64,000 nucleotides of DNA from the human T2T-CHM13v2.0 reference genome, Homo sapiens, in NCBI GenBank assembly GCA_009914755.4, contig CP068257.2, positions 8,512,001 to 8,576,000 on the forward strand, read 5' to 3'. Of this stretch, positions 2,566 through 45,843 are shown in pieces. The notes beneath the pieces are model-generated. The model saw nothing but the letters and a program-made list of their open reading frames with translations, made no database searches and was not told where the DNA came from. Position 1 is the stretch's first letter; every line of letters begins with the position of its first letter. Position numbers and translations under genes: made by a program.

Positions 2566-2572
2566 GTTCTGA
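2558..2572. other. Orientation-switch (inversion) junction within the alpha satellite
   Basis: Left of ~2565 the monomers are the reverse complement of the consensus (…gaatgtttctttccagtt). Right of it they are forward (ctgaaacacaatttttgtgctatctgcaagtggac…). The join links non-equivalent monomer positions through a shared 'cagtt'. Confidence 0.85.
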
Positions 2573-5500: not shown

Positions 5501-7450
5501 TAGAGCACTGTGAGACCAATGGTGGAAAAGGAAAAATCTTCACATTAAAACTAGACAGAAGCATTGTGACAAACTTCTTTGTGATGTGTGCATTCATCTC
5601 ACAGAGTTGAAACTTTATTTTGATTGACCAGCTTTCATACTCTCCTTTTGTAGAATCTGGATGTGGACATTTTGAGCACTTTGAGGCCCATGGTGGAAAG
5701 GGTAATATCTTCACATAAAAACCAGACAGAAGCATTCTGACAAACTTCTTTTTGATGTGTGCATTCATCTCACAGAGTTGAACTTTCTTTTGATCGAGCA
5801 GCTTTGAAACACTCTTTTTGTAGAATCCGCAAGTGGACATTTGGAGCGCTTTTTGGTGTCTGGTGGAAAAATAAGTATCTTTACGTAATAACTAGAGAGA
5901 AGCATTCTGACACACTTCTTTGAGATGTGTGCATTCATCTCACAGAGTTGAACCTTTCTTTTGATTGTGCAGTTTTGAAACAATGTTTTTGTAGAATCTG
6001 CAAGTGGACATTTGGAGCGCTTTGAGGCCTATGGTGGAAAAGGAAATGTCTTCACATAAAAACTAGACAGAAGCATTCTGACAAACTTCTTTGTGACGTG
6101 TGCATTCATCTCACAGAGTTGAAACTTTCCTTTGATTGAGCAGCTTTAAGCACCCTTTTTGTAGAATCTGCGAGTGGACTTTTGAAGCTCTTTGAAGCCT
6201 ATGGTGAAAAAAGGAAAATCTTCACATAAAAACTAGACACAAGAATTCTGACAAACTTCTTTGTGATTTCTTTATTCATCTCAGAGAGGTGACCCTTACT
6301 TTTGATTGAGCAGATTTGAAACACTTTTTTTGTAGAATCTGGAAGTGGACATTTGGGGCGCTTTGAGGCCTATGGTGGAAACGGAAATATCTTCACATAA
6401 AAACCAGGCAGAAGCATTCTGACAAACTTCTTTGTGATGTGTGCATTCATCTCACCAAGTTGAACATTTCTTTTGATTCAGCAGCTTTGAAACACTCTTT
6501 TTTTTTTTGAATCTGCAAGTGGACATTCGGAGCGCTTTGTGTCCTATGGTGGAAAAGGATATATCATCACATAAAAACTAGATAGAAGCATTCTGACAAA
6601 CTTGTCTGTGATGTGTGCATTCATCTCACAGAGTTGACCCTTACTTTTCATTGTGGAGTTTTGAAACACTGTTTTTGTAGAATCTGCAAGTGGATATTTG
6701 GAGTGCTTTGAGGCCTACAGTGTAAAAGGAAATATCTTCACAAAAAAACTAGACAGAAGCATTCTGACAATCTTATTTGTGATGTGTGCAATCATCTCAC
6801 AGAGATTAACCTTCCTTTCGATTGAGCAGCTTTGAATCACTCTTTTTGTAGAATCTGCAAGTGGATATTTTGAGCGCTTTGAGGCTTATGGTGGAAAAGG
6901 AAATACCTTCACATAAAAACTAGACAGAAGGATTCTGACAAAATTCTTTGTGATGTGTGCATTCATCAGAGAGTTGAACCTTACTTTTCATTTAGCAGTT
7001 TTGAAACACTCTTTTTGTAGAATCTGCAAGTGTACATTTGGGGCGCTTTAAGGCCTTTATTGGAAAAGGAAATATCTTCTTATAAAAACTATACAGAAGC
7101 ATTCGGACAAAATTTGTGACGTGCGTTTTCATCTCACAGAGTTAAAACTTTCTTTTGATTCAGCAGTTTTTAAACACCCTTTTTGTAGGATCTGCTAGGG
7201 GACATTTGGAGCGATTTGAGGCCTATGGTGGAAAAGGAATTATCTTCACATAACAACTAGACAAAAGAATTCTGAGAAACTTCTCTGCGATGTGTGTGTT
7301 CATGTCACTGAGTTGAACCTTTCTTTTGATTGAGCAGTTTGGAATCTCTTTTTGTAGAATCAGCAAGTGGACATTTGGAGGTCTTTGCGGCTATGGTAGA
7401 AAAGGATATATCGTCACATAAAATCTAGACAGAAGCAATCGGATAAACTT
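2566..7450 (+). repeat. Alpha satellite, forward orientation
   Basis: Monomers match the alphoid consensus (…cattctgagaaacttctttgtgatgtgtgcattcatctcacagagttgaac…gcagttttgaaacactctttttgtagaatctgcaagtggacatttggagcgctttgaggcctatggtggaaaaggaaatatcttcacataaaaactagacagaag). Confidence 0.96.
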
Positions 7451-7668
7451 GTTTTATTATTATTATTATGCTTTAAGTTTTAGGGTACATGTGCACAAAC
7501 TGCAGGTTACTTACATATGTATACATGTGCCATGCTGGTGAGCTACACCCACTAACTCGTCATCTAGCATTAGGTATATCTCCTAATGCTATCACTCTCG
7601 CCTCCTCACAACCTGCAACAGTCCCCAGAGTGTGATGTTCCCCTTCCTGTGTCCATGTGTTCTCATTG

Positions 7669-8233
7669 TTCAATTCCCACTTATGAGTGAGAATATGCTT
7701 TGTTTGTTTTTTTTGTTTTTGCGATAGTTTACTGAGAATGATGATTTCCAGTTTCATCCATGTCCCTACAAAGGACATGAACTCATCATTTTTTATGGCT
7801 GCATAGTATTCCATGGTGTATATGTGCCACATTTTCTTAATCCAGTCTATCATTGTTGGACATTTGGGTTGGTTCCAAGTCTTTGCTATTGTGAATAGTG
7901 CCACAATAAACATACGTGAGCATGTGTCTTTATAGCAGCATGATTTACAGTTCTTTGGGTATATACCCAGTAATGGGATGGCTGGGTCAAATGGGATTTC
8001 TAGTTCTAGATCCCTGAGGAATCGCCACACTGACTTTCACAATGGTTGAACTAGTTTACAGTCCCACCAACAGTGTAAAAGTGTTCCTATTTCTCCACAT
8101 CCTCTCCAGCACCTGTTGTTTCCTGACTTTTTAATGATTGTCATTCTAACTGGTGTGAGATAATATCTCACTGTGGATTTGATTTGCATTTCTCTGATGG
8201 CCAGTGATGGTGAGCATTTTTTCATGTGTTTTT
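7669..8233 (-). pseudogene. L1 ORF2 C-terminal fragment (direct 3' segment of the twin-primed element)
   Basis: Minus-strand ORFs 7560..8030 and 8037..8225 translate to [28 protein letters not shown]…CWRGCGE…[10 protein letters not shown] and …[25 protein letters not shown]…[32 protein letters not shown], which is the canonical ORF2 C-domain. The stop (rc 'tca') is at 7669-7671. Confidence 0.9.
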
Positions 8234-23393
<15,160 letters not shown>

Positions 23394-24280
23394 ACAAATT
23401 TACAAGAAAACAACAAACAACCCCATCTAAAAGTCGGCGAAGGACATGAACAGACACTTCTCAAAAGAAGACATTTATGCAGCCAAAAAACACATGAAAA
23501 AATGCTCATCATCACTGGCCATCAGAGAAATGCAAATCAAAACCACAATGAGATACCATCTCACACCAGTTAGAATGGCAATCATTAAAAAATCAGGAAA
23601 CAACAGGTGCTGGAGAGGATGTGGAGAAATAGGAACAATTTTACACTGTTGGTGGGACTGTAAACTAGTTCAACCATTGTGGAAGTCAGTGGGACGATTC
23701 CTCAGGGATCTAGAACTGGAAATACCATTTGACCCAGCCATCCCCTTACTAGGTATATGCCCAAAGGACTACAAATCATGCTGCTACAAAGACACATGCA
23801 CACGTATGTTTATTGCCGCACTATTCACAATAGCAAAGACTTGGAACCAACCCAAATGTCCAACAATGTTAGACTGGATTAAGAGAATGTGGCATGTGTA
23901 CACCATGGAATACTATGCAGCCATAAAAAATGATGAGTTCATGTCCTTTGTAGGGACATGGATGAAATTGAAAATCATCATTCTCAGTAAACTATCACAG
24001 AACAAAAAACCAAACACCGCATATTCTCACTCATAAGTGGGAATTGAACAATGAGAACACATGGACACAGGAAGGGGAACATCACACTCTGGGGACGGTT
24101 GTGTGGTGGGGGAGGGGGGAAGGATAGCATTGGGAGATATATCTAATGCTAGATGACGAGTTAGTGGGTGCAGCACACCAGCATGGCACATGTATACATA
24201 TGTAACTAACCTGAACAATGTGCACATGTACCCTAAAACTTAAAGGATAATAATAAAAAAATAAAAATAATAAAAAAAAA
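23394..24280 (+). mobile_element. L1 3' fragment (ORF2 C-terminus, 3'UTR and A-rich tail), ~0.9 kb, 5'-truncated
   Basis: …caaatttacaagaaaacaacaaacaaccccatctaaaagtcggcgaaggacatgaacagacacttctcaaaagaagacatttatgcagcc… ORF 23446..24036 translates to [60 protein letters not shown]… The 3'UTR (…gtaccctaaaacttaaagg) and tail (ataataataaaaaaataaaaataataaaaaaaaa) follow, then alpha satellite resumes at 'ctagacagaa'. Confidence 0.93.
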
Positions 24281-30624
<6,344 letters not shown>

Positions 30625-33600
30625 CTACACAGAAGAATTATGAGAAACTTTTTCATGATGTGTACATTCAACTCACAGCGTTGAACCTATCTTTTTATTG
30701 AACAGTTTTGAAACTCTCTTTTTCTACAATCTGGAAGTGGATATTTGGAGCCCTCTAAGGCCTACGTTGGAAAAGGAAATATCTTCACATAAAAACTACA
30801 CAAAAGCATTCTGAGAAACTTCTTTGTGATGAGTGCATTCATCACCCAGGGTTGAACCTTTCTTTTGATTGAGCAGTTTTAAAACACTCTTTATGTAGTA
30901 TCTGAAAGTGGATATTTGGAGTGATTTGAGGCCTATTTTGGAAAAGGAAATATCTTCACATAAAATCTACACAGAAGCATTCTGAGAAACTTCTTTGTGA
31001 TATGTGCATTCAGCTCACAGAGTTGAACCTATCTTTTGAGTGAGCAGTTTTGAAACTCTCTTTTTGTAGAATCTGCAAGTGGATATTTGGAGCCCTTTGT
31101 GGCCTATGGTGGAAAAGGAAATATGTTCATAAAAAAACTACACAGAAGGATTCTGAGAAACTTTTTTGTGATGTGTGCATTCATCTCACAGAGTTGAAAC
31201 TTTCTTTTGATTGAGCAGTTTTAAAACCCTCTTTTTGTAGAATCTCCAAGTGGGTATTTGGGGGGCTTTGAGGCCTATTGTGAAAAGGAAATATCTTCAC
31301 ACAAAAAATACACAGAAGCATTCTGAGAAACTACTTTGTGTTATGTGCATTCACCTCACAGAGTTGAACCTTGCTTTTGATTGAGCAGTTTGGAAACACT
31401 CTTTTTGTAGAATCTACAGGTAGATATTTGGAGTGCTTTGACGCCTATTGTGGAAAAGCATGTATCTTCACATAAAAACTACACAGAAGCATTCTGAGAA
31501 ACTTCTTTGTGATGTGTGCATTCAACTCACACAATTGAACCTATCTTTTGATTGAGCAGTTTTGAATCTCTCTTTTTGTAGAATCTGGAATTGGATATTT
31601 GGAGCGCTTTGAGGTCTTTTGTGGAAAATGAAGTATCTTCATCAAAAACTACACAGAATCATTCTGAGATACTTCATTTTGATGTGTGCATTCATCTCAC
31701 AGAGTGGAACCTTTCTTGTGATTCAGCAGTTTTATAACATGCTTTTAGTCGAATATGCAAGTGGATATATGGGGTGCTTTGATGCCTATTGTGGAAAACA
31801 AAATATCTTCACATGAAAACTACACAGAAGCATTCTGAGAAACTGCTTTTTGATGTGGGCATTCTTCTCACAGAGTTGAACCTTTGCTTTGATTGAGCAG
31901 TTTTGAAAAACGCTTTTTGTGGTATCTGCAAGTAGATATTTGGAGCGCTTTGAGGCCAATTGTGGAAAAGGAAATATCTTCACATAAAAACTACACAGAA
32001 ACATTCTGAGAAACTTCTTTGCGATGTGTGCATTCCTCCCACAGAGTTGAACAATTCTTTTCATTGAGCAGTTTTGTAACAATCTTTTTTAGAATCTGCA
32101 AATGGATAATTGGAAAGCTTTGAGGCCTATTATGGAAAAGGAAATTTCTTCACATAGAAACTACACAGTAGAATTCTGAGAAACTTCTTTGTGATGTGTG
32201 CATTCAACTCACAGAGTTAAATCTTTCTTTTGATTAACCAGTTTGGAAACATTCTTTTTGTAGAATCTCCAAGTGGATATTTGGAGCCTTTTGCAGCCTA
32301 CGGTGGAAAAGGAAATATTTTCACATAAAAACTACACAGAACCATTTGGAGAAACTTCTTTGTGGTGTGTGCATTCATCTGACACAGTTGAACCTTTCTT
32401 TTGATTGAGCAGTTTTGAAACACTCTTTTGTAGAATCTGCAAGTGGATATTTGGAACACTTTGATGGCTATTGTGTAAAAGGAAATATCTTCACATAAAA
32501 ACTACACAGGAACATTCAGAAAACTTTCTTTTGATGTGTGCATTCATCTCACAGAGTTGAACCTTTCTTTTGAATGAGCAGTTTTGAAACACTCTTTTTG
32601 TAGAATCTGCAGGTGGATATTTGCAGCGCTGTGAGGCGTACTGAGGAAAAGGAAATTTTCACATAAAAAATACACAGAAGCATTCTTAGAAACTTATTTG
32701 TGATGTGTGCATTCAACTCACGGAGTTGAACCTATCTTTTGATGAGCAGTTTTGAAACTCTCTTTTTTTGGAATCTGCATGTGGATATTTGGAGCGCTTT
32801 GGGGCCTATGGTGTAAAAGGAAATATCTTCACATAAAAGCTACACAGAAGCATTCTGAGAAACTTCTTTGTGATGTGTGCATTCAACTCACAGAGTTGTA
32901 CTTATCTTTTTATTGAGGAGTTTTGAAACTCTCTTTTTGTAGAATCTGCAAGTGGATAGTTAAAGCCCATTGCAGCCTGTGGTGGAAAAGGAAATATCTT
33001 CAGATAAAAAATACACAGAAGCATTCTGAGAACTTTATTTGCGATGTGTGCATTCATCTCACAGATTTGAACCTTTCTTTTGATTGAGCAGTTTTGAAAC
33101 ACTCTTTCTATAGTATCTGCTAGTGGATATTTGGAGCGCTTTGAGGGCAATCGTGGAAAAGTAAATATCTTCACATAAAAACTACACAGAAACATTCAGA
33201 AAACTTTCTTTTGATGTGTGCATTCATCTCACAGAGTTGAAACTTTCTTTTGATTGAGCAGTTTTGAAACACTCTTTTTGTAGAATCTGCAAGTGGATAT
33301 TTGCAGCGCTTTGAGGACTATTGTGAAAAAGGAAATATCTTCACATGAAAACTACCTAGAAGCATTCTCAGAAATGTCTTTTGACGGGTGCATTCATCTC
33401 AAAGAGTGCTTTGCGGCCCATTGTGGAAAACAAAATATCGTCACATAATAACTACACAGAAGCATTCTGAGAAACTTCTTTGTGATTTGTGCATTCATCT
33501 CACAGAGTTGTAACTTTCTTTTGATAGAGCAGTTTGGAAGCACTCTTTTAGTATAATCTACAAGAGGATATTTAGAACACTTTGAGGCCTATTGTGGAAA

Positions 33601-36600
33601 TGGAAATATCTTCACATAAAAACTGCACAGAAGCATTCTGAGCAACTTCTTTGTGATGTGTGCATTCAACTAACAGAGTTGAACTTATTTTTTGATTGAG
33701 CAGTTGTGAAAGTCTCTTTTTGTAGTATCTGCAAGTGAATATTTGGAGCCCTTTGCAGCCTATGGTGGAAATGGAAATATCTTCACATAAAAACTACACA
33801 GAAGTATCCCGAGAAACTTCTTTGTTATGTGTTCATTCATCTCACAGAGTTGAAACTTTCTTTTGTTTGAGTAGTATCGAAACACTCTTTTTTGTAGACT
33901 GTGCATGTGGATATTTACAGGGCTTTGAGGACTATTGTGGAAAAGGAAGTATCTTCACATAAAAATTATGCAGAAGCATTCAGATAAATTTATTGTGATG
34001 TGTGCATTCCTTTAACAGAGTTGAAACTTTGTTTTGATTGAGCATTTTTGAAACACTCTTCTTGTAGAATCTGCAAGTGGATATTTGGAGCTCTTTGATG
34101 ACTATTGTGGAAAAGGTAATATCTTCACTTAAAAACTAAACAGAAACATTCTGAGAAACTTCTTTATGATGTATGCATTCATCTCACAGAATTGAACTCT
34201 TCTTTTGATTGAGCAGTTTGGAAACACGCTTTTTCTAGAATCTATAAGTGGATATTTGGAGCTCCTTGAGGCCTATTTTGGAAAAGGATATATCTTCACA
34301 TAAAAACTACACAGAAGCATTCTGAGAAACTGCATTGTGATGTGTGCATTCATCTCACAGATTTGAACTTTTCTTTGATTGAGCAGTTTTGAAACACTCT
34401 TTTTGTAGAATCTGCAAGTGGATATTTGGAGCGCTTTTAGGCCTATTGTGGAAAAGAAAATATCATCACATAAAAACTATAGAGAATCATTCTGTGAAAC
34501 TTCTTTGCGTTGTGTTTACTCACCTCATGGAGTTGAAGTTTTCTTTTGATTGAGCAGTTTGGAAACACTCTTTTTGTAGAATCTGCAAGTGGATAGTTGG
34601 AGTGCTTTTAGGCCTACGGTTGAAAAGGAAATATCTTCACATAAAAACTACTCGGAAGTGTTCTGAGAAACTTCTTTGTGATGTGTGCATTCACCTCACA
34701 GGGTTGAAACTTTCTTTTGATTGAGCAGTTTTGAAACACTCTTTTTCTAGAATGTGCAAGTGGATATTTGCAGGGCTTTGTTGACTATTGTGGAAAGGGA
34801 AGTATGTTCACATAAAAATTACACAGAAGCATTCTGAGAAATTTCTTGTGAAGTGTGCATTCACTTCACAGAGTTGAAACTTTCTTTTGATTGAGCATTT
34901 TTGAAACACTCTTCTTGTACAATCTGCAAGTGGATATTTGAAGCCCTTTGAGGCCTATTGTGGGAAAGGAAATATCTTCACATAAAAAGTAATCAGAAAC
35001 ATTCTGAGAAACTTCTTTGTGATGTATGCATTCATCTCACAGAATTGAACCCTTCTTTTCATTAGCACTTTGGAAACTCTCTTTTTGTAGAGTCTAGAAG
35101 TGGACATTTGGAGCTCTTTGAGGTCTATTGTGGAAAATGAAATATCTTCACATAAAAACTACACAGAAGCATTCTTAGAAAGTTCTTTGTGATGTGTGCT
35201 TTCAACTCACAAAATTGAAACTTTTTTTGATTGAGCAGTGTTGAAACACTCTTTTTGTAGAATCTGCAAGTGGATATTAGGAGTGCTTTGAGGCCAATTG
35301 TGGAAAAGGAAATATCTTCACATAAAAACTACACAGAATCATTCTGTGAAACTTATTTGCGAGGTGTTTACTCATCTCACAGAGTTGAAGTTTTCTTTTG
35401 AATGAGCAGTTTGGAAACACTCTTTTTGTAGAATCTGCAAGTGGTTAGTTGGAGCGATTTGAGGTCTATGGTGTAAAAGGAAATATCTTCACATAAAAAC
35501 TACACGGAAGCATTCTGAGAAACTTCTTGGTGATGTTGCATTCATCTCACAGAGTAGAACATTTCTTTTGATTGAGCATTTTTGAAACACAGTTTTTGTA
35601 GAATCTGCAAGTGGATATTTGGAGAGGTTTGAGGACTATTGTGGAAAAGGAAGTATCTTCACAAGAAAAGTAAACAGAATCATTCTGGGAAATGTCTTGT
35701 GACGTGTGCATTCATCTCACAGAGTGCTTTGAGGCCCATTGTGGAAAAGGAAATATCTTCACATGAAAACTACAAAGAAGCATTCTGAGAAACTTCTTTG
35801 TGATTTTTGCATTCATCTCACGGTGTTTTACCATTCTTTTGTTTGAGCAGTTTGAAAACACTCTTTTAGTAGAATCTAAAAGTGGATATTTAGAGCGCTT
35901 TGAGGACTATTGTGGAAATTGAAATATCTTCACATAAAAACTACACAGAAGCATTCTGAGAAACTTCTTTGTGATGTGTGCATTCAACTCACAGAGTTGT
36001 ACCTATCTATTGGTAGAGGATTTTAGAAACTCTCTTTTTGGAGAATCTGCAAGTGAATATTTGGAGCCCTTTGTGGCCTACTGTGTAAAAGGAAATACCT
36101 TCACATAAAAACTACACAGAAGCACTCTGAGAAACTTCTTTGTGATGTGCGCATTCATCTCACAGATTTGAACCTTTCTTTAGACTGAACAGTTTAGAAA
36201 CTCTCTTTTAATAGAATAAGCAAGTGGATATTTGAAACACTTTGAGGCCTAATGTGGAAGAGAAAATATCTTCACATAAAAATGACACAGAAGCATTCTG
36301 ATAAACTACTTTGTGATGAGTCCATTAATCTCACGAAGTTGAACCTTTCTTTTCTTTGAGCAGTTTGGAAACAATCTTTACAGAATCTGCAGGTGGATAT
36401 TTGGAGCGCTTTGAAACAAATTGTGGAAAAGGAAATATCTTCACATAAAAACTGCACAGAAGCATTCTGAGAAACTTCTTTATGATGTGTGCATTCAACT
36501 CACAGACTTGAACTTTTCTTTTGATTGAACAGTTTTGAAACACTCTTTTTGTAGATTCTGCAAGTGTATATTTGTAGCCCTTTGAGGCCTACTGTGGAAA

Positions 36601-38070
36601 AGGAAATATCTGCACATAAAAACCACACAGAAGCATTCTGAGAAACTTCTTTGCGATGCGTGCATTCCCCTCAAAGAGTTGAATCTCTCTTTTGATTGAG
36701 CACTTTTGAAACCCCCTTTTTGTAGAATCTGCAAGGGGATATTTGGAGCCCTTTAAGGCCTATTTTGGAAAAGGAAATATCTTCACATAAAAACTACACA
36801 AAAGTATTGTGAGAAACTTCTTCATGATGTGTGATTTCGTCTCATAGAGTTGAACCTTTCTTTTCATTGATCAGTTTGGAAACACTCTTTTTGTAACATC
36901 TGCAGGTGGATGTTTGGAGCACTTTGTGGCGAATGGTGTAAAAGGAAATATCTTTAAATAAAAAGTACACAGAGGCATTCTGAGACACCTCTTTGAGATG
37001 TGTGCATTCAAGTCACCGGGTTGAGCCTATCTTTTTATAGAGCAGTTTTGAAACTCTATCTTTGCAGATTCTGTAAGTGGATACTTGGTGCATTGTGCAG
37101 CCAAGTGTGAAAAAGGAAATATCTTCACATAAAAACCACACAAAATAATTCTGAGAAACTTCTTTGTGTTGTGTGTATTCATCTCACAAAGCTGAACCTT
37201 TCTTTTGATTAAGCAGTTTTGAAACACTCATTTTGTAGAATGTGCAAGTCAATGTTTCGAGCACTTTGAGGCCTATTGTGGAAAAGGAAATATCTTCACA
37301 TAAAAACTACAAAGAAGCATTGTGAGAAACTACTTTGTGACGTGTGCATTCATCACACAGAGTTGAACCTTTCTTTTTATTGAGCAGTTTGGTAACACTC
37401 TTTTTGTAGAATCTCCAAGGGGATATTTTTAGCGCTTTGAGATCTTTGGTGGAAAAGGAAATATCTTCACATAGAAACTACACAGAAGCATTCTGAGAAA
37501 CTTATTTGGGATGTGTGCATTCATCTCACCGAGTTGAATCTATCCTTTGATTGAGCAGTTTTTAATTGCTCTTTTTGTAGAATCTGCAAGTGGATATTTG
37601 GAGCACATTTAGACCTATGGTGGAAAAGGAAACATCCTCACATAAAAACTACGAAGAAGCATTCTGAGAAACGTCTTTGTAATGTGTGCATTCATCTCAC
37701 AGAGTTGAACCTTTCTTTTGATTGAGCAGTTTCGAAACACTCTTTTTGTAGAATTTGGATGTGTATATTTGGAGTGCTTTGTGGCCTGTTGTGGAAAAGA
37801 AAATATCTTCACATAAACACTAGACAGAAGCATTCTGAGAAACTTTTTTGTGATGTCTGCATTCGACTCACACAGCTGAACCTATCTTTTGATTGAGAAG
37901 TTTTGATTCTCTCTTTTTGTAAAATCTGCAAGTGGATATTTGCAGACCTTTCTGGCCTATTTTGGAAAAGGAAACATCTTCACATAAAAAATAGAAGCAT
38001 TCTGAGAAACTTCTTTGTGATGTGTGCGTTCATCTCAAAAAGTTGAACATTTCTTTTGATTGAGCAGTTT
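30625..38070 (+). repeat. Alpha satellite, forward orientation ('ctacacag / gtggatatttgg' monomer class); first 139 bp is the downstream copy of the long duplication
   Basis: Continuous ~171-bp monomers, e.g. …aaaactacacagaagcattctgagaaacttctttgtgatgtgtgcattcaactcacagagttgaacctatcttttgattgagcagttttgaaactctctttttgtagaatctgcaagtggatatttggagc…. Confidence 0.95.
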
Positions 38071-38458
38071 CTATTATTATTATTATACTTTAAGTTTTAG
38101 GGTACATGTGCACATTGTGCAGGTTAGTTACATATGTATACGTGTGCCATGCTGGTGCGCTGCACCCACTAACTCATCATATAGCATTAGGTATATATCC
38201 CAATGCTATCCCTCCCCCCTCCTCCCACCCCACAACAGTCCCCAGAGTGTGATGTTCCCCTTCCTGTGTCCATGTGATTTCATTTTTCAATTCCCACCTA
38301 TAAGTGAGAATATGCGGTGTTTGGTTTTTTGTTCTTGTGATAGTTTACTGAGAATGATGACTTCCAATTTCATCCATGTCCCTAAAAAGGATATGAACTC
38401 ATCATTTTTTATGGCTGCATAGTATTCCATGGTGTATATAGACTGGATCAAGAAGATT
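38071..38458 (-). mobile_element. L1 3'-end fragment (~370 bp) with a ~20-bp inverted 5' piece; 9-bp target-site duplication
   Basis: 38071-38087 is the rc of an A-rich tail (ctattattattattata). 38088-38440 is the rc of the L1 3'UTR and the ORF2 end (ctttaagttttagggtacatgtgcacattgtgcaggttagttacatatgtatacgtgtgccatgctggtg … ggctgcatagtattccatggtgtatata). 38439-38458 ('atagactggatcaagaagatt') is sense-orientation L1 (cf. atagactggattaagaaaatg) and lies ~7 nt upstream of where the antisense segment starts in L1 coordinates. The alpha satellite flanks 'tgagcagttt' (38061-38070) and 'tagcagtttt' (38459-38468) form the TSD. Confidence 0.85.
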
Positions 38459-39830
38459 TAGCAGTTTTTAAAAAATCTTTTTGTAGTGTCTGCAAGGGGA
38501 TATTTGGAGCGTTTTGGGGCCTATTGTGGAAAAGGAACTATCTTCACATAAAAACTAGACAGAAGCATTCTGAGAAACTTTTGGTGGTCTGTGCATTCAA
38601 CTCACAGATTTCAGCCTTTCTTTTGATTGAACAGTTTTGAAACATTCTTTTTGTAATATCTGTAAATGGATATTTGAAGCGGTTTGAGGTCTATCTTGGA
38701 AAAGGAAATATCTTCACATATAAACTAGACAGAAGCATTCTGAGAAACTTCTCTGTGATAAGTGCCTTCATCTCATAGAGTTGAACCTTTCTTTTGATTG
38801 AGCAGTTTTGAAACACTCTTTTTGTTGTATATGCAAGTGGGTATTTGGAGCGATTTGTGGTCTATGGTGGAAAAGGAAATATCTTCACATAAAAACTAGA
38901 AGGAAACACTCTGAGAAACTTCTTTGTGATGTGTGCATTCATCTCACCAAGCTGAACCATTCTTTTGATGGAGCTGTTTTGAAATACTCTTTTTGTAGGA
39001 TCTGCAAGTGGATATTTGGAGTGCTTTCAGGTCTGTGGTGGAAAAGGAAATATCTTCACATAAAAACTAGACAGAAGTATTCTGAGAAACTTCTTTGTAA
39101 TGTGTGCATTCATCTCACAGTGTTGAAACTTTCTTTTGATTGAGGGTTTTGAAACAGTCTTTTTGATACAACTGCAAGTGGATATTTGGAGCGAATTGTG
39201 GCCTATGGTTTAAAAGGAAATATCTTCACATAAAAACTAGACAGAAGCCTTCTGAGAAACTTCTTTGTGATGTGTGCGTTCATCTCACTGGGTTGAATCT
39301 TTCCTTTCATCGAGCAGTATTGAAACACCCTTTTTGTAGAATCTGAAAGTAGATATTTGGAGCGATTGTGTCCTATGGTAGTAAAGGAAATATTTTCACA
39401 GAAAAACTAGACAGAAGCATTCTGCAAAACTTCCTCGTGTTGTTTTCACTTATCTCACCAAATTGAACCATTGTTTTCATTGAGCAGATTTGATACACTC
39501 TTTTTGTAGCATGTGCAAGTGAATATTTGGAACGCTTTGATGAGTATGACGGAAAAGGAAATACCTTCACATATAAACTAGACAGAAGCATTCTGAGAAA
39601 CTTCTCTGTGATGTGTGCACTCATCTCACAGAGTTGAACCTTTCTTTTGATCGAGTAGTTTTGAAACACTCTTTTTGTACCATCTGCAAGTGTATATTTG
39701 GAGCGTTTTGCCTCCTATGGTGGAAAAGGAAATATCTTCACATAAAAACTAGACAGATGCATTCTGAGAAACTTCTTTGTGATATGTGCATTCATGTCAC
39801 AGAGGTGAACTTCTAGTGTTTTGGACTCAT
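38459..39830 (+). repeat. Alpha satellite, last ~8 monomers; the distal edge of the array is at ~39810-39830
   Basis: Monomers continue to '…gatatgtgcattcatgtcacagaggtgaacttctagtgttttggactcatcc'. The last recognisable alphoid motif is degenerate, and after it comes non-satellite sequence (aagcctcaacattagttttaaggctcc…). Confidence 0.9.
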
Positions 39831-40733
39831 CCAAGCCTCAACATTAGTTTTAAGGCTCCTTGTTCTTTCCAGCAGGAGAAAAATGAACATGCAAAGCTCT
39901 CAGGCTCATTGTTATAATCCTCTCAAGGATCAGTCTCATTAGCAGACAGCAGAGTCTTGATCCCTTGTTTCACCAAACTAACCACTTGGCTGAGAGAAGT
40001 TGCTCTTAGTCCTAGGGGAACTTCTCATAACCTTTGCAAGCTCTTCAAGTATTTGTGTATTTTCCCCTTTCAGAAAGTTGTGTTTATCTCAGCATCCCAT
40101 TGTCATCTCCAAAATTAAATAATTGTGAAGGATCTAAGATTTCATCCTATTTGTAAACAAACCTATTAATCTTCCATTTTCATGGATGCTGGTAGAAGGC
40201 ATAAGGCACTGAAGTATGAAAACAAACCTACTATTTACTGTCTACCTGGAGGCAAAAGCCTCATTTTTGTATTAGTTCTCCTTGTCCATACTACATTTTT
40301 TAGAGGGATTTCAAAAGGCTCAGATGGACATTGCACATGGGGAAGATTTGTGTCACAGCTGAGCAGACTCAAGACTAAGAAACCTCAATCTTCTTAAAGT
40401 AGGTTACATGCAAACCTGTCCAACCTTTGCCTCACAGAGAAAAATTGTCTTTATTATATTGATTGAGTAATTTATCTGCCATTCACCTGAAGAGAAAAAC
40501 TACTACCCTTTTTCCAGGTTATTTGTGTACAAAAATCTTTGAAAAATAGCCTGGAACAGGACAGGTATGTGATGTAAGACACAAAAAAATGACAAACTCT
40601 AAGAGACTTTTATAGAACTACATCTCAGTAGCATGCATCTTTTCCATAAAATGTTGCACTAAACAATCCTGTGATGAAAAAATTCCATTGAAGATTTTTG
40701 ACATGAAGACTAACTTTTGTTGTTTTGTGTTGT

Positions 40734-40942
40734 GGGATTGTTCAAGTGATTCTCCTGTGTCAGCCTCCAAAGTAGCTGGAGTACAGGCTCCCACTACCAC
40801 ACTCAGCTTATTTTTCTATTTTTAGTAGAGACGGGGTTTTACCATGTTGGTCAGGGTGGTCTCGAACTCATGATCTCAGGTGGTCCACCTGCCTTGGCCT
40901 CACAAAGTGCTAGGAATATAGGCATGAGCCACCATGCCCGGC
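40734..40942 (-). mobile_element. Alu fragment (5' ~210 bp of an Alu in reverse orientation; the 3' end and tail are missing)
   Basis: The rc of ggccgggcatggtggctcatgcctatattcctagcactttgtgaggccaaggcaggtggaccacctgagatcatgagttcgagaccaccctgaccaacatggtaaaaccccgtctctactaaaaatagaaaaataagctgagtgtggtagtgggagcctgtactccagctactttggaggctgacacaggagaatcacttgaa. Confidence 0.9.
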
Positions 40943-40999
40943 CCCAGAAATGAAAGTTCTATGTGTGAAGTAATGTAATTCTGACTGATAAATGACAGG

Positions 41000-41900
41000 T
41001 GACAGTAAGTGAAAATCTAACACAATTCAACCTTTTTACATATTTAGACATATTGTAACTTGTTAGCTTATTGGAAAAAGTTAAATGACTACCAATTTAT
41101 ACGGCATATTTATTCTGAATGAATTGCTAATCTAGATTTGAGAGATGAAATAATTATTTTTACAACACAGAAACATAAAGTGCATTTCCATATACCAACA
41201 ATGAACAATTTGACAGTAAATTAATAAAACAATTGTTTGCAACATTAAAATAATATAATTCTTAGAAATAAATTTAATAAGAAGGTACATATTTTGTACA
41301 ATAAAAAATACAGGATCAGAATATTTATGAAAAAAACTAAAAAGGAGTTAAATAACTGGCAACAAATTCCATGTTCCTGAACCGGAAGACTTAATGAAGT
41401 TAAGATGACAATACTACTACCCAAAGTAGTGTACAGATGTACTGTAATCCCAATTTTTAATTTTTCCAACTTTTCTTTTGCAAAAACAAAATAACTCATT
41501 TAAAACTTCATATGGAATTTGAAAATCCTCTGAATGTACAGAATAATCTTGAAAGGAAGAACAAAATTAGATGGCTCACAATTTTAAATTTGAAAACATA
41601 CAAAGCTACTATAATTATAACAGTTTGCTAGTGGCGTAAGAACAATTGTAGAGATCAAATAAATAAAATAGATAATCCAAAAAACCCTTGCATAAATTAT
41701 TGATTGTCTTTCGACAAGGGTGCCTTAATCATTATGTAAAGAAAAGGACAGTTTGTTCCACAATAAATGCTGGGAAAACAAGTCCACATTGAAACCAGTA
41801 AAGTTGAATCTTTATCACATTCCAAGTACAAAAATTAAATAAAAATAGATTAAAGACATAAGTGTTCAACTTTAGTGGTTTCTAATGGTTGTTTTTATTT
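41000..41900 (+). mobile_element. Ancient L1 (L1M/L1PB-like) ORF2 fragment, heavily diverged
   Basis: Nucleotide-level similarity to L1 ORF2 at roughly aa 650-1040. For example 'ataactggcaacaaattccatgttcctgaaccggaagacttaatgaagttaagatgacaatactacccaaagtagtgtacagatgtactgtaatccc' corresponds to 'aaatggaaagacatcccatgttcatggattggaagaattaatattgttaagatgtcaatactacccaaagcaatctacagattcaatgcaatccc', and '…ttgattgtctttcgacaagggtgcc…gttccacaataaatgctgggaaaaca' corresponds to 'LIFDKGAK…[10 protein letters not shown]'. Boundaries are approximate. Confidence 0.6.
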
Positions 41901-42259
41901 ATGTGGGGTCAGTACTAACATGAACACCTTTATACACACAAACTAGAAAACTTTAAAGAAATGGATACATTACTAGATATACACACTCTCCCAAGATTAA
42001 GCCAGGAAGACAATTATTTCCTGAATGGACCAATAAAAAGCTCTGATATTATATAGGTAATAAGTAGCTTGCCAATCAAAAAAATAAAAGCCCTGGACTT
42101 TCTGGATTTACAGCCAAATTCTACCAAATGTACAAGGGAGAGCTGGTACAATTCCTACAGAAACTATCCCCAAAAATTGAGGAGGACGGTCTCCTCCCCA
42201 ACTCATTCTATAAGGACAGCATGATCTTGACACCAAAACCTGGCAGAGACACAACAAAA

Positions 42260-42446
42260 ACACAAAATTAGCCGGGCTTGGTAGCAGACACCTGTAGTCC
42301 CAGCTACTTGGGAGGCTGAGGCAGGAGAATGGCATGAACCCAGGAGGCGGAGCTTGCATTAAGCAGAGATTGCACCAGTGCACTCCAGCCTGGGCAACAG
42401 AGGGAGACTCCATCAAAAAAAAAAAAAAAAGAAAGAAAGAAAGAAA
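42260..42446 (+). mobile_element. 5'-truncated Alu (right arm plus A-tail with a (GAAA)n extension) inserted in the old L1
   Basis: aaaattagccgggcttggtagcagacacctgtagtcccagctacttgggaggctgaggcaggagaatggcatgaacccaggaggcggagcttgcattaagcagagattgcaccagtgcactccagcctgggcaacagagggagactccatcaaaaaaaaaaaaaaagaaagaaagaaagaaaag. The L1 sequence resumes at 'aaaacttcaggccaatattc'. Confidence 0.88.
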
Positions 42447-43336
42447 AGAAAACTTCAGGCCAATATTCTTGACAAACATCAATACAAAAGTTCTCAGAAA
42501 AATATTTGTAAACCAAATCCAGCAGCACATCAAACAGGTAATCCGTCATTATCAAGTAGGCTGCCTCCTTAGGATGCAAGGTTGGCCCAGCATGTGCAAA
42601 TCAATAAATGTAATACATCACATAAACATAACTAAAAACAAAAAACAGACGATTATCCCAATAGATACAGAAAATAATAAAAGCTGTGTATAAAAAACCC
42701 ACAGCCAACAATCTGTTGAATGGGCAAAGTTGGGAGCTTTTTTTTTGAAAACCAGCACAAGGCAAGAATGCCCTCTCTCACCATTTCTATTCAACATAGT
42801 ATTGAAAGTCCTGACCAGAGCAATCAGGCTAGAGAAAGAAATACAAAAAGCATCCAAATAGGAAGAGAGAAAGCCAAACTATTTCTGTTTGCAGATAACA
42901 TAATTCTATATCTAGAAAACCCTGTAGTTTCAGGTACAAAGCTTCTTTAGTTAACAAACAACTTCAGCGAATTTTCAAGATACTAAATCAATGTGCAAAG
43001 ATCACTAACATTTCTCTACACCAATGATAACCACACTGACAGCAAAATCAGAAAGGCCATCCCATTCACAATTGCCACAAAAATGATAAAATACCTGGAA
43101 ATGCAGCTCACCAGGGAGGTGAAAGAGCTCTACAATGAGAATTAAAAAACACTGCTCAAATAAATCAGAGAAGACACAAACAAATGGAAAACCACCTCAT
43201 GCTCATGGATAGGAAGATCCAATATAACTAAAATGGCTATACTTCACAAAGCAATTGACAGATTTAATGCTATTTCCATCAAACTGCCAATAAAATTTTT
43301 TACAGATCTAGAAAAAACTATTTTAAAATTCGTATA

Positions 43337-43632
43337 GGCTGGGTGCAGTGGCTCATGCCTGTAATCCCAGCACTCTGGGAGGCCAAGGGGTGCAGATCAT
43401 GAGGTCAGGAGATCGAGACCATCATGGCCAACATGGTGAAACTCCTTCTCAACTAAAAATACAAAAAATAGCTGGGTGAAGTGGCAAGCGCTTGTAATCC
43501 CAGCTACTCGGGAGGCTGAGGCAGGAGAATTCATTGAACCAGGGAGTCAGAGGTTGCAGTGAGCTGAGATTGCACCACTGCACTCCAGCCTGATGACAGA
43601 GTGACATTCCATCAAAAAAAATTATATATATG
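43337..43632 (+). mobile_element. Full-length Alu (AluS/Y-like) with A-rich tail, inserted in the old L1
   Basis: ggctgggtgcagtggctcatgcctgtaatcccagcactctgggaggccaagg…gagatcgagaccatc…ggccaacatggtgaaactcc…aaaatagctgggtgaagtggcaagcgcttgtaatcccagctactcgggaggctgaggcaggagaattcattgaacc…tgcaccactgcactccagcctgatgacagagtgacattccatcaaaaaaaattatatatatg. Confidence 0.92.
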
Positions 43633-44400
43633 AAACCAAAAAGGAGCACACATAGCCAAGGCAATCCCAAGCAAAAAAGAACAAAGCTGCAGGCATCAGG
43701 TTGCCTGGCTTCAAATTACACTACAGGGCTATAGTAATGAAAACAGCATAACACTGATACAAAAACAGACACATAGACAAATGGAGCAGAATAGAGAGCC
43801 CAGAAACAAGGCTGCACATCTATGCCATGTGATAATTGACAAGGCTGACAAAAACAAGCAGTGAGAAAAAGATTATTTATTCAATAAGTGGTGCTGGAAT
43901 AATTGGCTGGCAACATGTGGAAGATTGAAGCTGGACCCCTTATTTATATCATATACAAAAAAAAATCAACTCAAGACTGATTAAAGACTTAAATATAAAA
44001 TCTTTATGTATAAAAACCATGAAAGACAATCCAGGCAATACCATCCTGGATATAGGAATGGGCAAAGATTTCATGATAGAAAGACCAAAAGCAACAGCAA
44101 GAAAAGCAAAAATTAACAAGTAGGATTTAATTAAAGTAAAGAGATTTTGCATAGCAGAAAAAAAACTATTAACAGAGTAAACAGAAAACCTATGGAGTGG
44201 AAAAAAATATTTGTAAACTATCCATCTAACAAAGGTCTAATATCTAGCATCTATAAGGAACTTAAATTTACAAAAGAAAAACAACCCCATTAAAAAGTGG
44301 GCAAAGACAATGGACAGTTTTCGAAAGAAGACATACATGAGGCCAAGAAGTGTATGAGAAAAAGCTCAGCATCAATGATAGTTAGAGAAATGAAAATTAA

Positions 44401-44597
44401 GTGATCCTTGTGCCTCAGTCTCCCAAATAGCTGGGACTACAAGCAAGCACCACAATGCCCAGACAATTTTTGAATTTTTAGTAGAGATGGGATTTTGCCA
44501 TGTTTCCATGGCTGGTCTTGAACTCCTGAGCTTAAGTGATCAGCCTGCCTCAGCCTCCCAAAGTTTTGGGATTACAAGTGTGAGCCACCATGCCTGG
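44401..44597 (-). mobile_element. Alu fragment (5' ~200 bp, reverse orientation) inside the old L1
   Basis: gtgatccttgtgcctcagtctcccaaatagctgggactacaagcaagcaccacaatgcccagacaatttttgaatttttagtagagatgggattttgccatgtttccatggctggtcttgaactcctgagcttaagtgatcagcctgcctcagcctcccaaagttttgggattacaagtgtgagccaccatgcctgg. Confidence 0.9.
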
Positions 44598-45843
44598 ACT
44601 CCATTATTCAATCTAAGAACTGCATGCAGAAATGTGTTCAGGTTTTAAAATTTTATTCACTTCTGCACTGATACTTTCAAACCAAATTTTATAGCAGCAT
44701 CATTTACAGTAAAAAATTTAAAAAGAAATCCAGATATCTTCTAAGAGTCAAACAGACAAAGAAAATATGGTATATACACACAACAGAATATTATTTATCC
44801 TTAAAATGAATGTGGGGGGGAGGAGCCAAGAAGGCCGAATAGGAACAGCTCCGCTCTACAGCTCCCAGTGTGAGTGACGCAGAAGATGGGTGATTTCTGC
44901 ATTTCCAACTGAGGTACCAGGTTCAACTCACTGGGGAGTGCCAGACAGTAGGTGCAGGACAGTGGGTGCAGTGCACCGTGCATGAGCCGAAGCAGGGCAA
45001 GGCATTGCCTCACCAGCGAAGTGCAAGGGTTCAGGGAATTCCCTTTCCTAGTCAAAGAAAGTGGTGACAGATGGCATCTGGAAAATCGGGTCACTCCCAA
45101 CCTAACACTGCACTTTTCCAACAGGCTTAAAAAATGTCACACCAGGAGATTATATCCTGCACCTGGCTCAGAGAGTCCTACGTCTACAGAGCCTCACTCA
45201 TTGCTAGCACAGCAGTCTAAGATGAAACTGCAAAGTGGCAGTGAGGCTGGGGGAGGTACGCCCGCCATTGCTAAGGCATGAGTAGGTAAACAAAGTGGCC
45301 AGGAAGCGGGAACTGGGTGGAGCCCACCACAGCTCAAGGAGGCCTGCCTGCCTCTGTAGGCTCCACCTCTGGGGACAGGGCACAGACAAACAAAAAGACA
45401 GCAGTAACCGCTGCAGACTTAAATATCCCTCTCTGACAGCTTTGAAGAGTGTAGTGGTTCTCCCAGCTTGCAGCTTGAGATCTGAGAATGGACAGACTGC
45501 CTCCTCAAGTGGGTCTCTGACTCCTGAGTAGCCTAACTGGGAGGCACCCCCCAGTATGGTTGGACTGAAACCTCACACAGCCTGGTACTCTTTTGAGACA
45601 AAATTTCCAGAGGAACAATCAGGCAGCAGCATCTGCGGTTCACCAATATCCGCTGTTCTGCAGTGAGAGCTGCTGATAAGCAGGCAAACAGGGTCTTGAA
45701 TGGACCTCCAGTAAACTCCAACAGACCTGCAGCTGAGGGTACCGACTGTTAGAAGGAAAACTAACAAACAGAAAGGACATTCACACCAAAAACCCATCTG
45801 TACATCACCATCATCAAAGCCCAAGTTAGATAAAACCACAAAG

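What the first reader, a model, noticed from the sequence alone, without database searches (positions are those of the whole stretch)
39780..39840. Distal edge of an alpha-satellite array: centromeric satellite to arm-type sequence transition
About 39.8 kb of continuous alphoid monomers, broken only by L1 insertions, stops at ~39810-39830. Beyond that point I found no more satellite. The downstream sequence is old L1, Alu elements, a full-length L1PA and unique sequence. This is the structure of a pericentromeric satellite/arm junction. Such junctions were gaps or poorly resolved in pre-T2T assemblies and are known hotspots for rearrangement. The last monomer is degenerate, with an internal deletion.
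Basis: seen in the sequence. Interest (0 to 1): 0.5.

Follow-up and report, generated by a model that had tools for sequence, protein, structure and literature searches.

The report
Edge of old monomeric alpha-satellite array
The window really does contain the end of a roughly 40-kb block of old, decayed centromere-type repeat (alpha satellite of the M1/SF4 kind) that gives way abruptly to ordinary transposon-rich DNA, but this is a well-described, routinely annotated feature of primate chromosomes.

Summary
171-bp alpha-satellite monomers fill window 1-39814. The last monomer is cut at consensus position 56, at 39814. No satellite occurs in the remaining 24.2 kb, and a planted-monomer control showed 100% detection down to 60% identity.

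The array is purely monomeric. Identity is flat at about 0.83 for lags 1-24, with no higher-order repeat (HOR), no CENP-B boxes and A-type boxes throughout. Against the 12 published class consensus sequences, 181 of 198 monomers are closest to M1 (SF4). One sub-block's consensus is identical to published M1. Length (171 bp) and mean pairwise identity (0.824) match published M1-layer values.

- The array is also broken by a strand switch at 2564-2568.
- It contains three sharp sub-layers, with boundaries at 26336 and 37660.
- The last monomer is truncated, not internally deleted.
- The "full-length L1PA" is split by a nested L1 with a 15-bp target-site duplication (TSD).

"Distal", "pericentromeric", the chromosome, the species and polymorphism could not be tested, because no primate genome is available here.

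This is a dead-centromere layer meeting centric-transition sequence, as already catalogued genome-wide in T2T-CHM13. It is ordinary and of low interest.

The parts
1..2568 (-). Alpha-satellite monomers on the minus strand (15 monomers, M1 class, sub-layer A variant). Runs off the left end of the window.
   Evidence: nhmmer hits on the - strand. The local alignment to the reverse-complement consensus ends at 2568. Within-block identity is 0.855, the highest in the window.
2564..2568 (.). Strand-switch (inversion) breakpoint inside the array, with a 5-bp overlap of the two orientations.
   Evidence: The minus-orientation alignment ends at 2568 and the plus-orientation alignment starts at 2564. 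Sequence read.
2564..26335 (+). Alpha-satellite sub-layer A, plus strand: an M1 variant with C at model column 106 and G at column 163. Interrupted by L1 #1 and L1 #2.
   Evidence: Diagnostic-column tracking. Sharp switch between monomers 26166-26335 and 26337-26505.
7436..10999 (-). L1 insertion #1 (L1PA-like), with a twin-priming-type structure. 7449-8236 matches L1 5248-6036 on the - strand, with its tail at the left end. 8234-11001 matches L1 2473-5244 on the + strand, so the 5' part is inverted.
   Evidence: blastn with the recalled L1HS probe, 93.4% and 95.6% identity. Pfam RVT_1 E=3e-38. PDB LINE-1 ORF2p 8uw3 E=2e-184. Boundaries read.
23393..24292 (+). L1 insertion #2: 5'-truncated L1PA-like 3' end (L1 5158-6037) with an A-rich tail.
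   Evidence: blastn 94.7%, tblastn ORF2p aa 1059-1263, A-rich tail read.
26337..37659 (+). Alpha-satellite sub-layer B: canonical M1. Its consensus is identical to published M1 (AJ130755) at every defined position. Interrupted by L1 #3.
   Evidence: The consensus sequence comes from PMC4496801 supplementary Fig. S1C.
29544..30637 (+). L1 insertion #3: 5'-truncated L1PA-like 3' end (L1 4948-6032) with a poly-A tail.
   Evidence: blastn 94.4%, tblastn, boundaries read.
37661..39814 (+). Alpha-satellite sub-layer C, the outermost ~11 monomers (two of them partial): an M1 variant with T at column 106 and G at column 163. Interrupted by L1 #4 and ends in the truncated monomer.
38068..38454 (-). L1 insertion #4: 5'-truncated L1PA-like 3' end on the - strand (L1 5661-6032). 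Flanked by a 13-bp target-site duplication, GATTGAGCAGTTT / GATTTAGCAGTTT.
   Evidence: blastn 94.6%. Monomer phase goes from position 72 back to 60 across the insert. Sequence read.
39759..39814 (+). Last, truncated monomer: consensus positions 1-56 of my rotation, with one 2-bp gap.
   Evidence: Local alignment, score 90, ending at query base 57 of 39758-39900, which is window base 39814. nhmmer E=2e-12.
39814..39815 (.). The satellite / non-satellite junction.
   Evidence: The flank scores no better than shuffles.
39815..40739 (.). Immediate flank: 925 bp with no match to satellite, L1 (DNA or protein) or Alu, and no terminal or inverted-repeat structure. Unassigned, unique-looking sequence.
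40740..44815 (+). Old interspersed repeats. A partial Alu (-) lies at 40740-40943. A very old L1 ORF2 fragment lies at 41270-41575 (36% aa identity). An old L1 (+) spans 41919-44815 (75-79% nt identity to the L1HS probe) and is pierced by Alus at 42256-42423, 43337-43621 and 44411-44597.
44816..54201 (+). Full-length L1PA (44816-46758 plus 49999-54201, about 6.15 kb) split by a nested 5'-truncated L1PA. The nested element is 46759-49730, followed by about 270 bp of non-L1 sequence ending in a second poly-A at 49998. It is flanked by a perfect 15-bp TSD, AAAAGAGCTCCTTAA, at 46744-46758 and 49999-50013.

Best explanation
Window 1-39814 is part of a 'dead' monomeric alpha-satellite layer of the M1 / suprachromosomal family 4 (SF4) type. 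The window covers at least 39.8 kb of it, about 33.9 kb of satellite plus 5.9 kb of L1, and the array continues past the left edge.

On the published layered-expansion model, such an array was once a homogenised centromere core in a hominoid ancestor. Newer arrays then pushed it aside and it stopped being homogenised. It has since decayed by point mutation (about 18% pairwise divergence), four L1PA retrotranspositions and at least one inversion.

The array has no CENP-B boxes and no higher-order repeats (shown here). From that, and from the published descriptions of such layers as pericentromeric heterochromatin rather than functional centromere, I infer it is not kinetochore-forming chromatin.

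At 39814/39815 the array ends in mid-monomer. It abuts ordinary, anciently derived, transposon-rich sequence, the 'centric transition' in T2T terms.

Shown here: satellite identity, M1 class, monomeric organisation, sub-layers, L1 insertions with TSDs, the exact breakpoint, and the absence of satellite for 24.2 kb.

Inferred only: the pericentromeric location, the centromere lying to the left, and the dead-centromere history.
For: - Array extent and sharp end.
- No HOR or dimer periodicity: identity 0.830-0.836 for lags 1-24.
- No CENP-B boxes, and A-type boxes throughout.
- 181 of 198 monomers are closest to the published M1 consensus. The window consensus is 98.8% M1, and the sub-layer B consensus is identical to M1.
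- Modal length is 171 bp, in 124 of 193 monomers. Published M1 is 171 bp; V1 and the H types are 172 bp (PMC2729386 Table 1).
- Mean pairwise identity is 0.824. Published M1 is 0.812-0.850 (Table 3).
- (1-0.824)/2 at 0.2% per Myr gives about 44 Myr, reproducing the paper's 'calculated age' of 45 Myr for M1 (Table 4).
- The L1 inserts are 93-96% identical to the L1HS probe and carry TSDs and poly-A tails.
- The leftmost block is the least diverged (0.855 within-block identity). Identity to consensus falls weakly toward the junction (rho=-0.18, p=0.009). Both fit a centromere lying to the left.
- The T2T paper describes monomeric layers with strand switches and L1s, flanked by centric-transition sequence, as the genome-wide norm.
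Against: - Location relative to a live centromere was not tested, because no primate genome is available here.
- Only 24.2 kb of flank is visible, so this may be the edge of one block and not the outermost edge.
- On chromosomes 8, 17 and X, layers older than M1 (V1, H1-H4) lie distal to it (PMC2729386). None is seen here, so the simple model does not by itself predict M1 touching arm sequence.
- The PERCON 'M1' class is an umbrella (SF4+) that also captures older layers (PMC4496801). Assignment to SF4 proper therefore rests on monomer length, identity level and the exact consensus match, not on a phylogenetic 'mixing test'.
- The divergence gradient is weak, and is not significant for mean pairwise identity (p=0.18).
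Confidence: 0.8

Rival explanations
1. The non-satellite stretch from 39815 onward is an island between two alpha-satellite blocks, not the outer limit of the pericentromeric satellite. Older layers (V1/SF6, H-types) would resume beyond 64 kb.
For: Published layer maps place older layers distal to M1 on chromosomes 8, 17 and X, and none is seen here. Only 24.2 kb of flank is visible. Divergent alpha-satellite regions are described as fragmented by insertions and rearrangements.
Against: No monomer, however decayed, lies in 24.2 kb. From 40740 the flank contains very old repeats: old L1s at 36% aa and 75-79% nt identity, and an apparent L2 fragment recognised from memory only. That part is therefore long-resident arm-type DNA and not a recent insertion into an array. 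The first 925 bp (39815-40739) are unassigned.
Confidence: 0.25
2. The block is not next to a live centromere. It would be a relic or ectopic alpha-satellite block, for example the vestigial ancestral centromere at human 2q21.2, or a block moved by segmental duplication.
For: Such blocks exist: hg38 annotates alpha satellite at 2q21.2 (PMC4496801 Table 4). Nothing in the window shows a live HOR array nearby.
Against: The 2q21.2 block listed there is a 9.9-kb SF2/SF5 mixture, not at least 34 kb of pure M1. Most monomeric alpha satellite is pericentromeric, so the prior for this reading is low.
Confidence: 0.05
3. The junction is a secondary rearrangement breakpoint (deletion, inversion or duplication edge) that removed older layers and fused M1 satellite to arm sequence. 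On this reading it is not the original boundary of the array.
For: The monomer is cut at an arbitrary internal position, 56 of 171. Older layers are absent. The same array already carries one inversion breakpoint with 5-bp microhomology. Divergent alpha satellite is reported to accumulate inversions and deletions.
Against: No signature distinguishes this from an original boundary. There is no filler, no duplicated flank and no inverted repeat. The outermost ~11 monomers form their own sub-layer (C), as expected if the oldest variant sits at an intact edge.
Confidence: 0.3
4. The junction is an assembly artefact: a chimeric join between a satellite contig and an unrelated arm contig.
For: Satellite edges are classic sites of misassembly. 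Nothing here can test read support.
Against: Both sides look biologically coherent up to the join. The array is divergent enough (about 82% pairwise identity, no satellite self-match of 300 bp or more at 90% or above) to assemble uniquely.
Confidence: 0.03

Closest known systems
SF4 (M1, 'yellow layer') monomeric alpha satellite, as defined by Alexandrov/Shepelev (PMC2729386, PMC4496801)
   Same: 171-bp monomers, A-type box, strictly monomeric arrangement and mean pairwise identity 0.824. 181 of 198 monomers are closest to the M1 consensus, and the sub-layer B consensus is identical to AJ130755. L1PA-grade insertions are present.
   Different: Two of the three sub-layers differ from the canonical M1 consensus (A at two fixed positions, C at three; model columns 106 and 163 are the diagnostic ones). 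L1 subfamilies were not typed. No cross-chromosome 'mixing test' could be run.
Xp pericentromeric satellite-to-arm transition (Schueler et al. 2001/2005, as summarised in PMC2729386)
   Same: Monomeric alpha satellite with L1 insertions and orientation changes, ending against arm sequence. Divergence increases, weakly here, toward the arm.
   Different: On Xp the outermost layer is the ancient H4 type (identity about 0.71, 172 bp), with a full succession of layers. Here the M1 layer itself touches non-satellite sequence.
T2T-CHM13 'divergent/monomeric alpha-satellite' and 'centric transition' annotation classes (bioRxiv 10.1101/2021.07.12.452052)
   Same: Same combination of features: strand switches, TE enrichment in divergent alpha satellite, and non-satellite transition sequence beyond.
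   Different: None in kind. The specific locus could not be looked up.
SF5 (R1/R2) irregular layer
   Same: 17 monomers score marginally closer to R2, which differs from M1 at only 5 positions.
   Different: There are no B-type (R1) monomers and no CENP-B boxes. Three of the five M1/R2 diagnostic positions are in the M1 state in all sub-layers.

Membership tests
Alpha satellite | Head-to-tail tandem monomers of about 171 bp | tested here: met
   TRF period 171. Monomer spacing has mode 171 in 124 of 193 cases, mean 170.7.
Alpha satellite | Sequence similarity to published alpha-satellite consensus monomers | tested here: met
   The window consensus is 98.8% identical to M1 and 98.2% to R2 (sequences from PMC4496801 supplementary Fig. 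S1C).
SF4 / M1 monomeric layer | Monomers classify as M1 among the 12 published monomer classes | tested here: met
   181 of 198 are closest to M1, 17 to R2 and none to the J, D, W or R1 classes. Caveat: PERCON's M1 class is the SF4+ umbrella.
SF4 / M1 monomeric layer | A-type (pJalpha) box, no CENP-B box | tested here: met
   No matches to TTCGNNNNANNCGGG on either strand. The A-box core occurs 89 times, and all the common box variants are A-type.
SF4 / M1 monomeric layer | Monomeric arrangement (no dimer or HOR periodicity) | tested here: met
   Mean identity is 0.830-0.836 for every lag from 1 to 24. No satellite self-match of 300 bp or more at 90% or above.
SF4 / M1 monomeric layer | 171-bp monomer (172 bp in V1/SF6 and H1-H4) | tested here: met
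   Only 5 of 193 spacings are 172 bp; 124 are 171 bp. Criterion from PMC2729386 Table 1.
SF4 / M1 monomeric layer | Intra-array mean monomer identity of about 0.81-0.85 | tested here: met
   0.824 overall and 0.83 within sub-layers, against Table 3 of PMC2729386. My identities ignore gap columns, so they may be slightly high.
SF4 / M1 monomeric layer | Oldest L1 insertions are L1PA3 (rarely PA4) | tested here: inconclusive
   The four inserts are 93.4-95.6% identical to an L1HS probe written from memory. That fits roughly PA3-PA5, but no subfamily consensus was available for typing.
SF4 / M1 monomeric layer | Monomers 'mix' on a tree with SF4 arrays from other chromosomes and not with other layers | not testable with these tools
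   No reference SF4, SF6 or H-type arrays are available.
Pericentromeric array edge / centric transition | No further alpha satellite on the arm side | tested here: inconclusive
   Met for the 24.2 kb visible. Nothing can be said beyond base 64000.
Pericentromeric array edge / centric transition | Lies beside a live HOR centromere on the other side | not testable with these tools
   The window begins inside the satellite, and no primate genome collection is offered.
Active-centromere HOR array (SF1-3) | Higher-order repeat units at least 95% identical, with CENP-B boxes in B-type monomers | tested here: not met
SF5 (R1/R2) | Irregular alternation of B-type R1 and A-type R2 monomers | tested here: not met
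   No monomer is closest to R1 and there are no B boxes.

The most novel reading that the evidence does not exclude
The junction could be the original seeding boundary of an SF4-era centromere. On this reading an M1 array was established about 16-18 Myr ago, by the published layer dating, directly in ancient arm sequence. That would explain why no older layers (V1, H1-H4) lie outside it, why a distinct ~11-monomer sub-layer (C) sits at the very edge, and why the breakpoint falls in mid-monomer. It would mark this chromosome arm as carrying an evolutionarily new or repositioned centromere of early-hominoid age, with the integration breakpoint preserved to the base.
Probability: 0.12. Interest if true: 0.35.

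Novelty: already known. Interest (0 to 1): 0.1.

Why it matters
It matters little beyond annotation. The window is a clean textbook example of a decayed monomeric alpha-satellite layer, with sub-layers, a strand switch, L1 dating material and a base-precise end. Such junctions are useful as unique anchors for mapping reads into pericentromeres and for comparing orthologous boundaries between apes. Every one of them is already resolved and classified in T2T-CHM13 and the ape T2T assemblies. One slightly unusual point is that an M1 layer touches arm sequence with no older layer in between. It could say something about that chromosome's centromere history, but that needs the genomic address.

Tried and rejected
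1. Internal deletion in the last monomer. I aligned 39815 onward to a tandem consensus on both strands. Scores were at or below the shuffle mean, so this is rejected in favour of truncation.
2. Palindromic or inverted duplication at the 2.5-kb strand switch. No satellite self-match of 300 bp or more at 90% or above exists on either strand. It is an old inversion breakpoint, not a recent inverted duplication.
3. Dimeric or higher-order periodicity, suggested by TRF's 341/342 periods. Lag analysis shows lag 2 is no better than lags 1 or 3. Rejected.
4. A single uniform layer. The block identity matrix looked uniform, but diagnostic columns then showed three sharp sub-layers. My first impression is corrected.
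5. The flank as part of an old L1 or a DNA transposon. tblastn with L1 ORF1p and ORF2p finds nothing in 39815-41269, and there are no terminal inverted repeats. The flank remains unassigned.
6. Gene fragments in 54.7-64 kb. Nine ORFs were searched against Pfam with no hits.
7. Chromosome assignment. No available collection holds primate genomes, since the collections are bacterial, viral, plasmid or metagenomic. I did not attempt it, so as not to waste capped scans.
8. L1 subfamily typing. No L1PA consensus set is available, so only divergence from a recalled L1HS probe is reported.
Full report

Yes. TRF finds 171-bp arrays from base 1 to 39810 and only small unrelated repeats after that. I seeded a search with a general alpha-satellite consensus. 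I then built a profile HMM from 155 full-length window monomers and rescanned both strands with all filters off.

- 204 monomer hits (E down to about 1e-58) tile 1-39814.
- The last hit is 39761-39814 and covers model positions 1-54 only (E=2e-12).
- In 39815-64000 the only hit is at chance level (E=6.6).

To show that this absence means something, I planted mutated monomers into the downstream sequence. Single monomers were recovered 100% of the time at 60% identity or more to the consensus, and 87% of the time at 55%. Published between-layer identities are 66-72% (PMC2729386 Table 3), so even the most ancient layer types would have been seen.

**2. The junction itself**

A local alignment of 39758-39900 to a tandem consensus ends at 39814. 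It covers consensus positions 1-56 with one 2-bp gap (GAAC--TTCT). Sequence from 39815 onward aligns to the consensus, on either strand, no better than its own shuffles do: 156-242 of 300 shuffles reach the observed score. The last monomer is therefore simply truncated.

The first 925 bp of flank (39815-40739) match neither satellite, Alu nor L1, at DNA or protein level. They carry no terminal or inverted-repeat structure.

**3. What kind of alpha satellite?**

- *Organisation.* Mean pairwise identity between monomers is flat at 0.830-0.836 for lags 1 to 24, with a maximum of 0.946 for any single pair. No satellite segment of 300 bp or more matches another at 90% or above. There is therefore no dimeric or higher-order repeat.
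- *Boxes.* There are no CENP-B boxes (TTCGNNNNANNCGGG) on either strand, and the box region is A-type throughout.
- *Length.* The modal monomer spacing is 171 bp in 124 of 193 cases; only 5 are 172 bp.
- *Class.* The 12 published class consensus monomers are printed in supplementary Fig. S1C of PMC4496801. I classified every monomer against them. 181 of 198 are closest to M1, 17 are closest to R2 (which differs from M1 at five positions), and none is closest to any B-type or HOR class. The window consensus is 98.8% M1.
- *Match to the published M1 layer.* Shepelev et al. (PMC2729386) describe the M1 ('yellow', SF4) layer as 171 bp, A-type and monomeric, with intra-array identity 0.812-0.850. 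The next older layer, V1, is 172 bp at 0.803-0.818, and the ancient H-types are 172 bp at 0.79 or below. My value is 0.824.
- *Apparent age.* (1-0.824)/2 divided by 0.2% per Myr gives about 44 Myr. This reproduces their deliberately 'mock' divergence age of 45 Myr for M1 (Table 4).
- *Caveat.* The PERCON 'M1' class is an umbrella (SF4+) that also takes in older layers. Assignment to SF4 proper rests on monomer length, identity level and the exact consensus match described below. It does not rest on a phylogenetic mixing test.

**4.

(a) *A strand switch.* Monomers are on the minus strand from 1 to 2568 and on the plus strand from 2564 onward, with a 5-bp overlap. It is not a recent palindromic duplication.

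(b) *Three sharp sub-layers*, defined by model columns 106, 130 and 163:

| Sub-layer | Coordinates | Diagnostic states | Note |
|---|---|---|---|
| A | 1-26335 | C106 / G163 | includes the minus-strand block |
| B | 26337-37659 | T106 / C163 | consensus identical to published M1 at every defined position |
| C | 37661-39814 | T106 / G163 | ~11 monomers, two of them partial, including the truncated last one |

Within-sub-layer identity is about 0.83 and between-sub-layer identity about 0.816. The switches happen between adjacent monomers and do not coincide with L1 insertions. Sub-layers within layers are described in PMC2729386.

(c) *Polarity.* The leftmost, minus-strand block is the least diverged (0.855). 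Identity to consensus falls weakly toward the junction (Spearman -0.18, p=0.009). Mean pairwise identity shows no significant trend (p=0.18). This is weak support for the younger, centromere-proximal side lying to the left.

**5. The interruptions**

All four gaps in the array are L1. I mapped them with an L1HS sequence written from memory, used only as a positional probe. The probe encodes ORFs of exactly 338 and 1275 aa. Independently, the window ORF at 9029-10006 matches solved human LINE-1 ORF2p (8uw3) residues 429-744 at E=2e-184 and Pfam RVT_1 at 3e-38.

- **L1 #1 (7436-10999).** It has the twin-priming architecture. L1 5248-6036 lies on the minus strand, with its tail at the left end, joined to L1 2473-5244 on the plus strand.
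- **L1 #2 (23393-24292) and L1 #3 (29544-30637).** Both are 5'-truncated plus-strand 3' ends with A-rich tails.
- **L1 #4 (38068-38454).** A minus-strand 3' end flanked by a 13-bp TSD. The monomer phase repeats positions 60-72 across the insert.

All four are 93.4-95.6% identical to the probe. That is L1PA-grade, and roughly what the literature reports for M1 layers (oldest L1 = PA3, rarely PA4). I could not type the subfamilies.

Together the L1s occupy 5.9 kb, leaving about 33.9 kb of satellite.

**6. The downstream sequence**

- Partial Alu (-) at 40740-40943.
- A very old L1 ORF2 fragment at 41270-41575 (36% aa identity).
- An old L1 (+) at 41919-44815 (75-79% nt identity), pierced by three Alus.
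- A full-length L1PA, 44816-46758 plus 49999-54201, about 6.15 kb. It has about 127 extra bases in the 5' UTR relative to L1HS.
- That L1PA is itself split by a nested 5'-truncated L1PA at 46759-49730. About 270 bp of non-L1 sequence follows, ending in a second poly-A. The whole insert is bracketed by a perfect 15-bp TSD, which looks like a 3' transduction.
- Another Alu at 54462-54692.
- About 9 kb with no Pfam-detectable coding content.

The 'full-length L1PA' is really a nested pair.

**7. Interpretation**

The best-supported reading (confidence about 0.8) is as follows. This is a dead M1/SF4 monomeric alpha-satellite layer: a former hominoid-ancestor centromere core that stopped being homogenised. 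Since then it has accumulated mutations, L1PAs and an inversion. At 39814/39815 it ends against long-resident arm-type sequence, the 'centric transition' of T2T terminology. The T2T centromere paper reports exactly this combination genome-wide: divergent or monomeric alpha satellite enriched in strand switches and L1s, with non-satellite transition regions beyond.

The following are inferred, not shown:
- the location is pericentromeric;
- this is the distal edge;
- the species is human.

The youngest repeats seen are L1PA-grade. An M1 layer dated to about 16-18 Myr in the human lineage could equally be carried by other apes. The sequence alone therefore does not separate human from other great apes.

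One mildly unusual point is that no layer older than M1 lies outside it. Three readings are possible:
- more satellite lies beyond the window (rival, about 0.25);
- older layers were deleted by a rearrangement, a question of mechanism that overlaps with the main reading (about 0.3);
- the centromere on this arm dates only from SF4 times (the 'novel case', about 0.12).

**8. Verdict**

The feature belongs to a thoroughly described and already annotated class, so interest is low.

Noticed in passing
window 2564-2568: The alpha-satellite array switches strand here: minus-strand monomers run 1-2568 and plus-strand monomers from 2564, with a 5-bp overlap.
   Followed up: yes
window 26335/26337 and 37659/37661: Sharp boundaries between adjacent monomers separate three M1 sub-layers, distinguished by fixed differences at model columns 106, 130 and 163. 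The middle sub-layer's consensus equals the published M1 consensus exactly.
   Followed up: yes
window 46744-50013: A 5'-truncated L1PA is nested inside a full-length L1PA, with a perfect 15-bp TSD (AAAAGAGCTCCTTAA). After its own poly-A (~49716-49731) come about 270 bp of non-L1, non-Alu sequence ending in a second poly-A (to 49998). This looks like an L1 3' transduction. The source locus is unknown.
   Followed up: partly
window 7436-10999: This L1 insertion has a twin-priming-type inversion. L1 5248-6036 lies on the minus strand and joins at about 8234-8236 to L1 2473-5244 on the plus strand.
   Followed up: partly
window 38440-38457: At the 5' end of L1 #4, about 18 bp (TAGACTGGATCAAGAAGA) read like L1 sequence from about position 5600-5620 in the opposite orientation. 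This may be a very short twin-priming inversion. It was judged by eye only.
   Followed up: no
window 45590-45717: The full-length L1PA has about 127 extra bases in its 5' UTR relative to the L1HS probe, at about L1HS position 779. From memory this matches the ~129-bp segment present in L1PA6 to older L1PA3 and lost in younger L1s (the ZNF93-binding region). Not verified against a reference.
   Followed up: no
window 58412-58668: A minisatellite: a 43-bp unit (TGACTAGGCGATAACTGCCCTCCTTCTCTTCTATCTGCCCCTG) repeated 6 times at 94% match, in the otherwise unique-looking downstream sequence. Also (AC)15 at 57360-57389 and (AG)16 at 60480-60512.
   Followed up: no
window 54240-54470: The sequence just 3' of the full-length L1PA resembles, from memory only, the 3' end of an L2 LINE (…GGTTTTAAGCAGATGAAAACATTATTTGCCTTATGCTTTGAAAAGACTTACTCTGG…). 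If correct, the flank is ancient mammalian DNA. No reference was available to test this.
   Followed up: no
alpha-satellite monomers throughout 1-39814, model positions ~14-44: The profile search repeatedly gave weak opposite-strand hits (E about 0.2-10) to model positions 14-44 inside ordinary monomers. This reflects a partial dyad symmetry (TGTGA…TCACA) in that part of the monomer.
   Followed up: no
window 29544-29572 and 30638: At L1 #3 the satellite resumes at about monomer position 160, after breaking at about position 131. About 25 bp of the target monomer may have been lost at insertion (a target-site deletion). Alternatively, the first L1 bases mimic the monomer by chance. Not resolved.
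   Followed up: no
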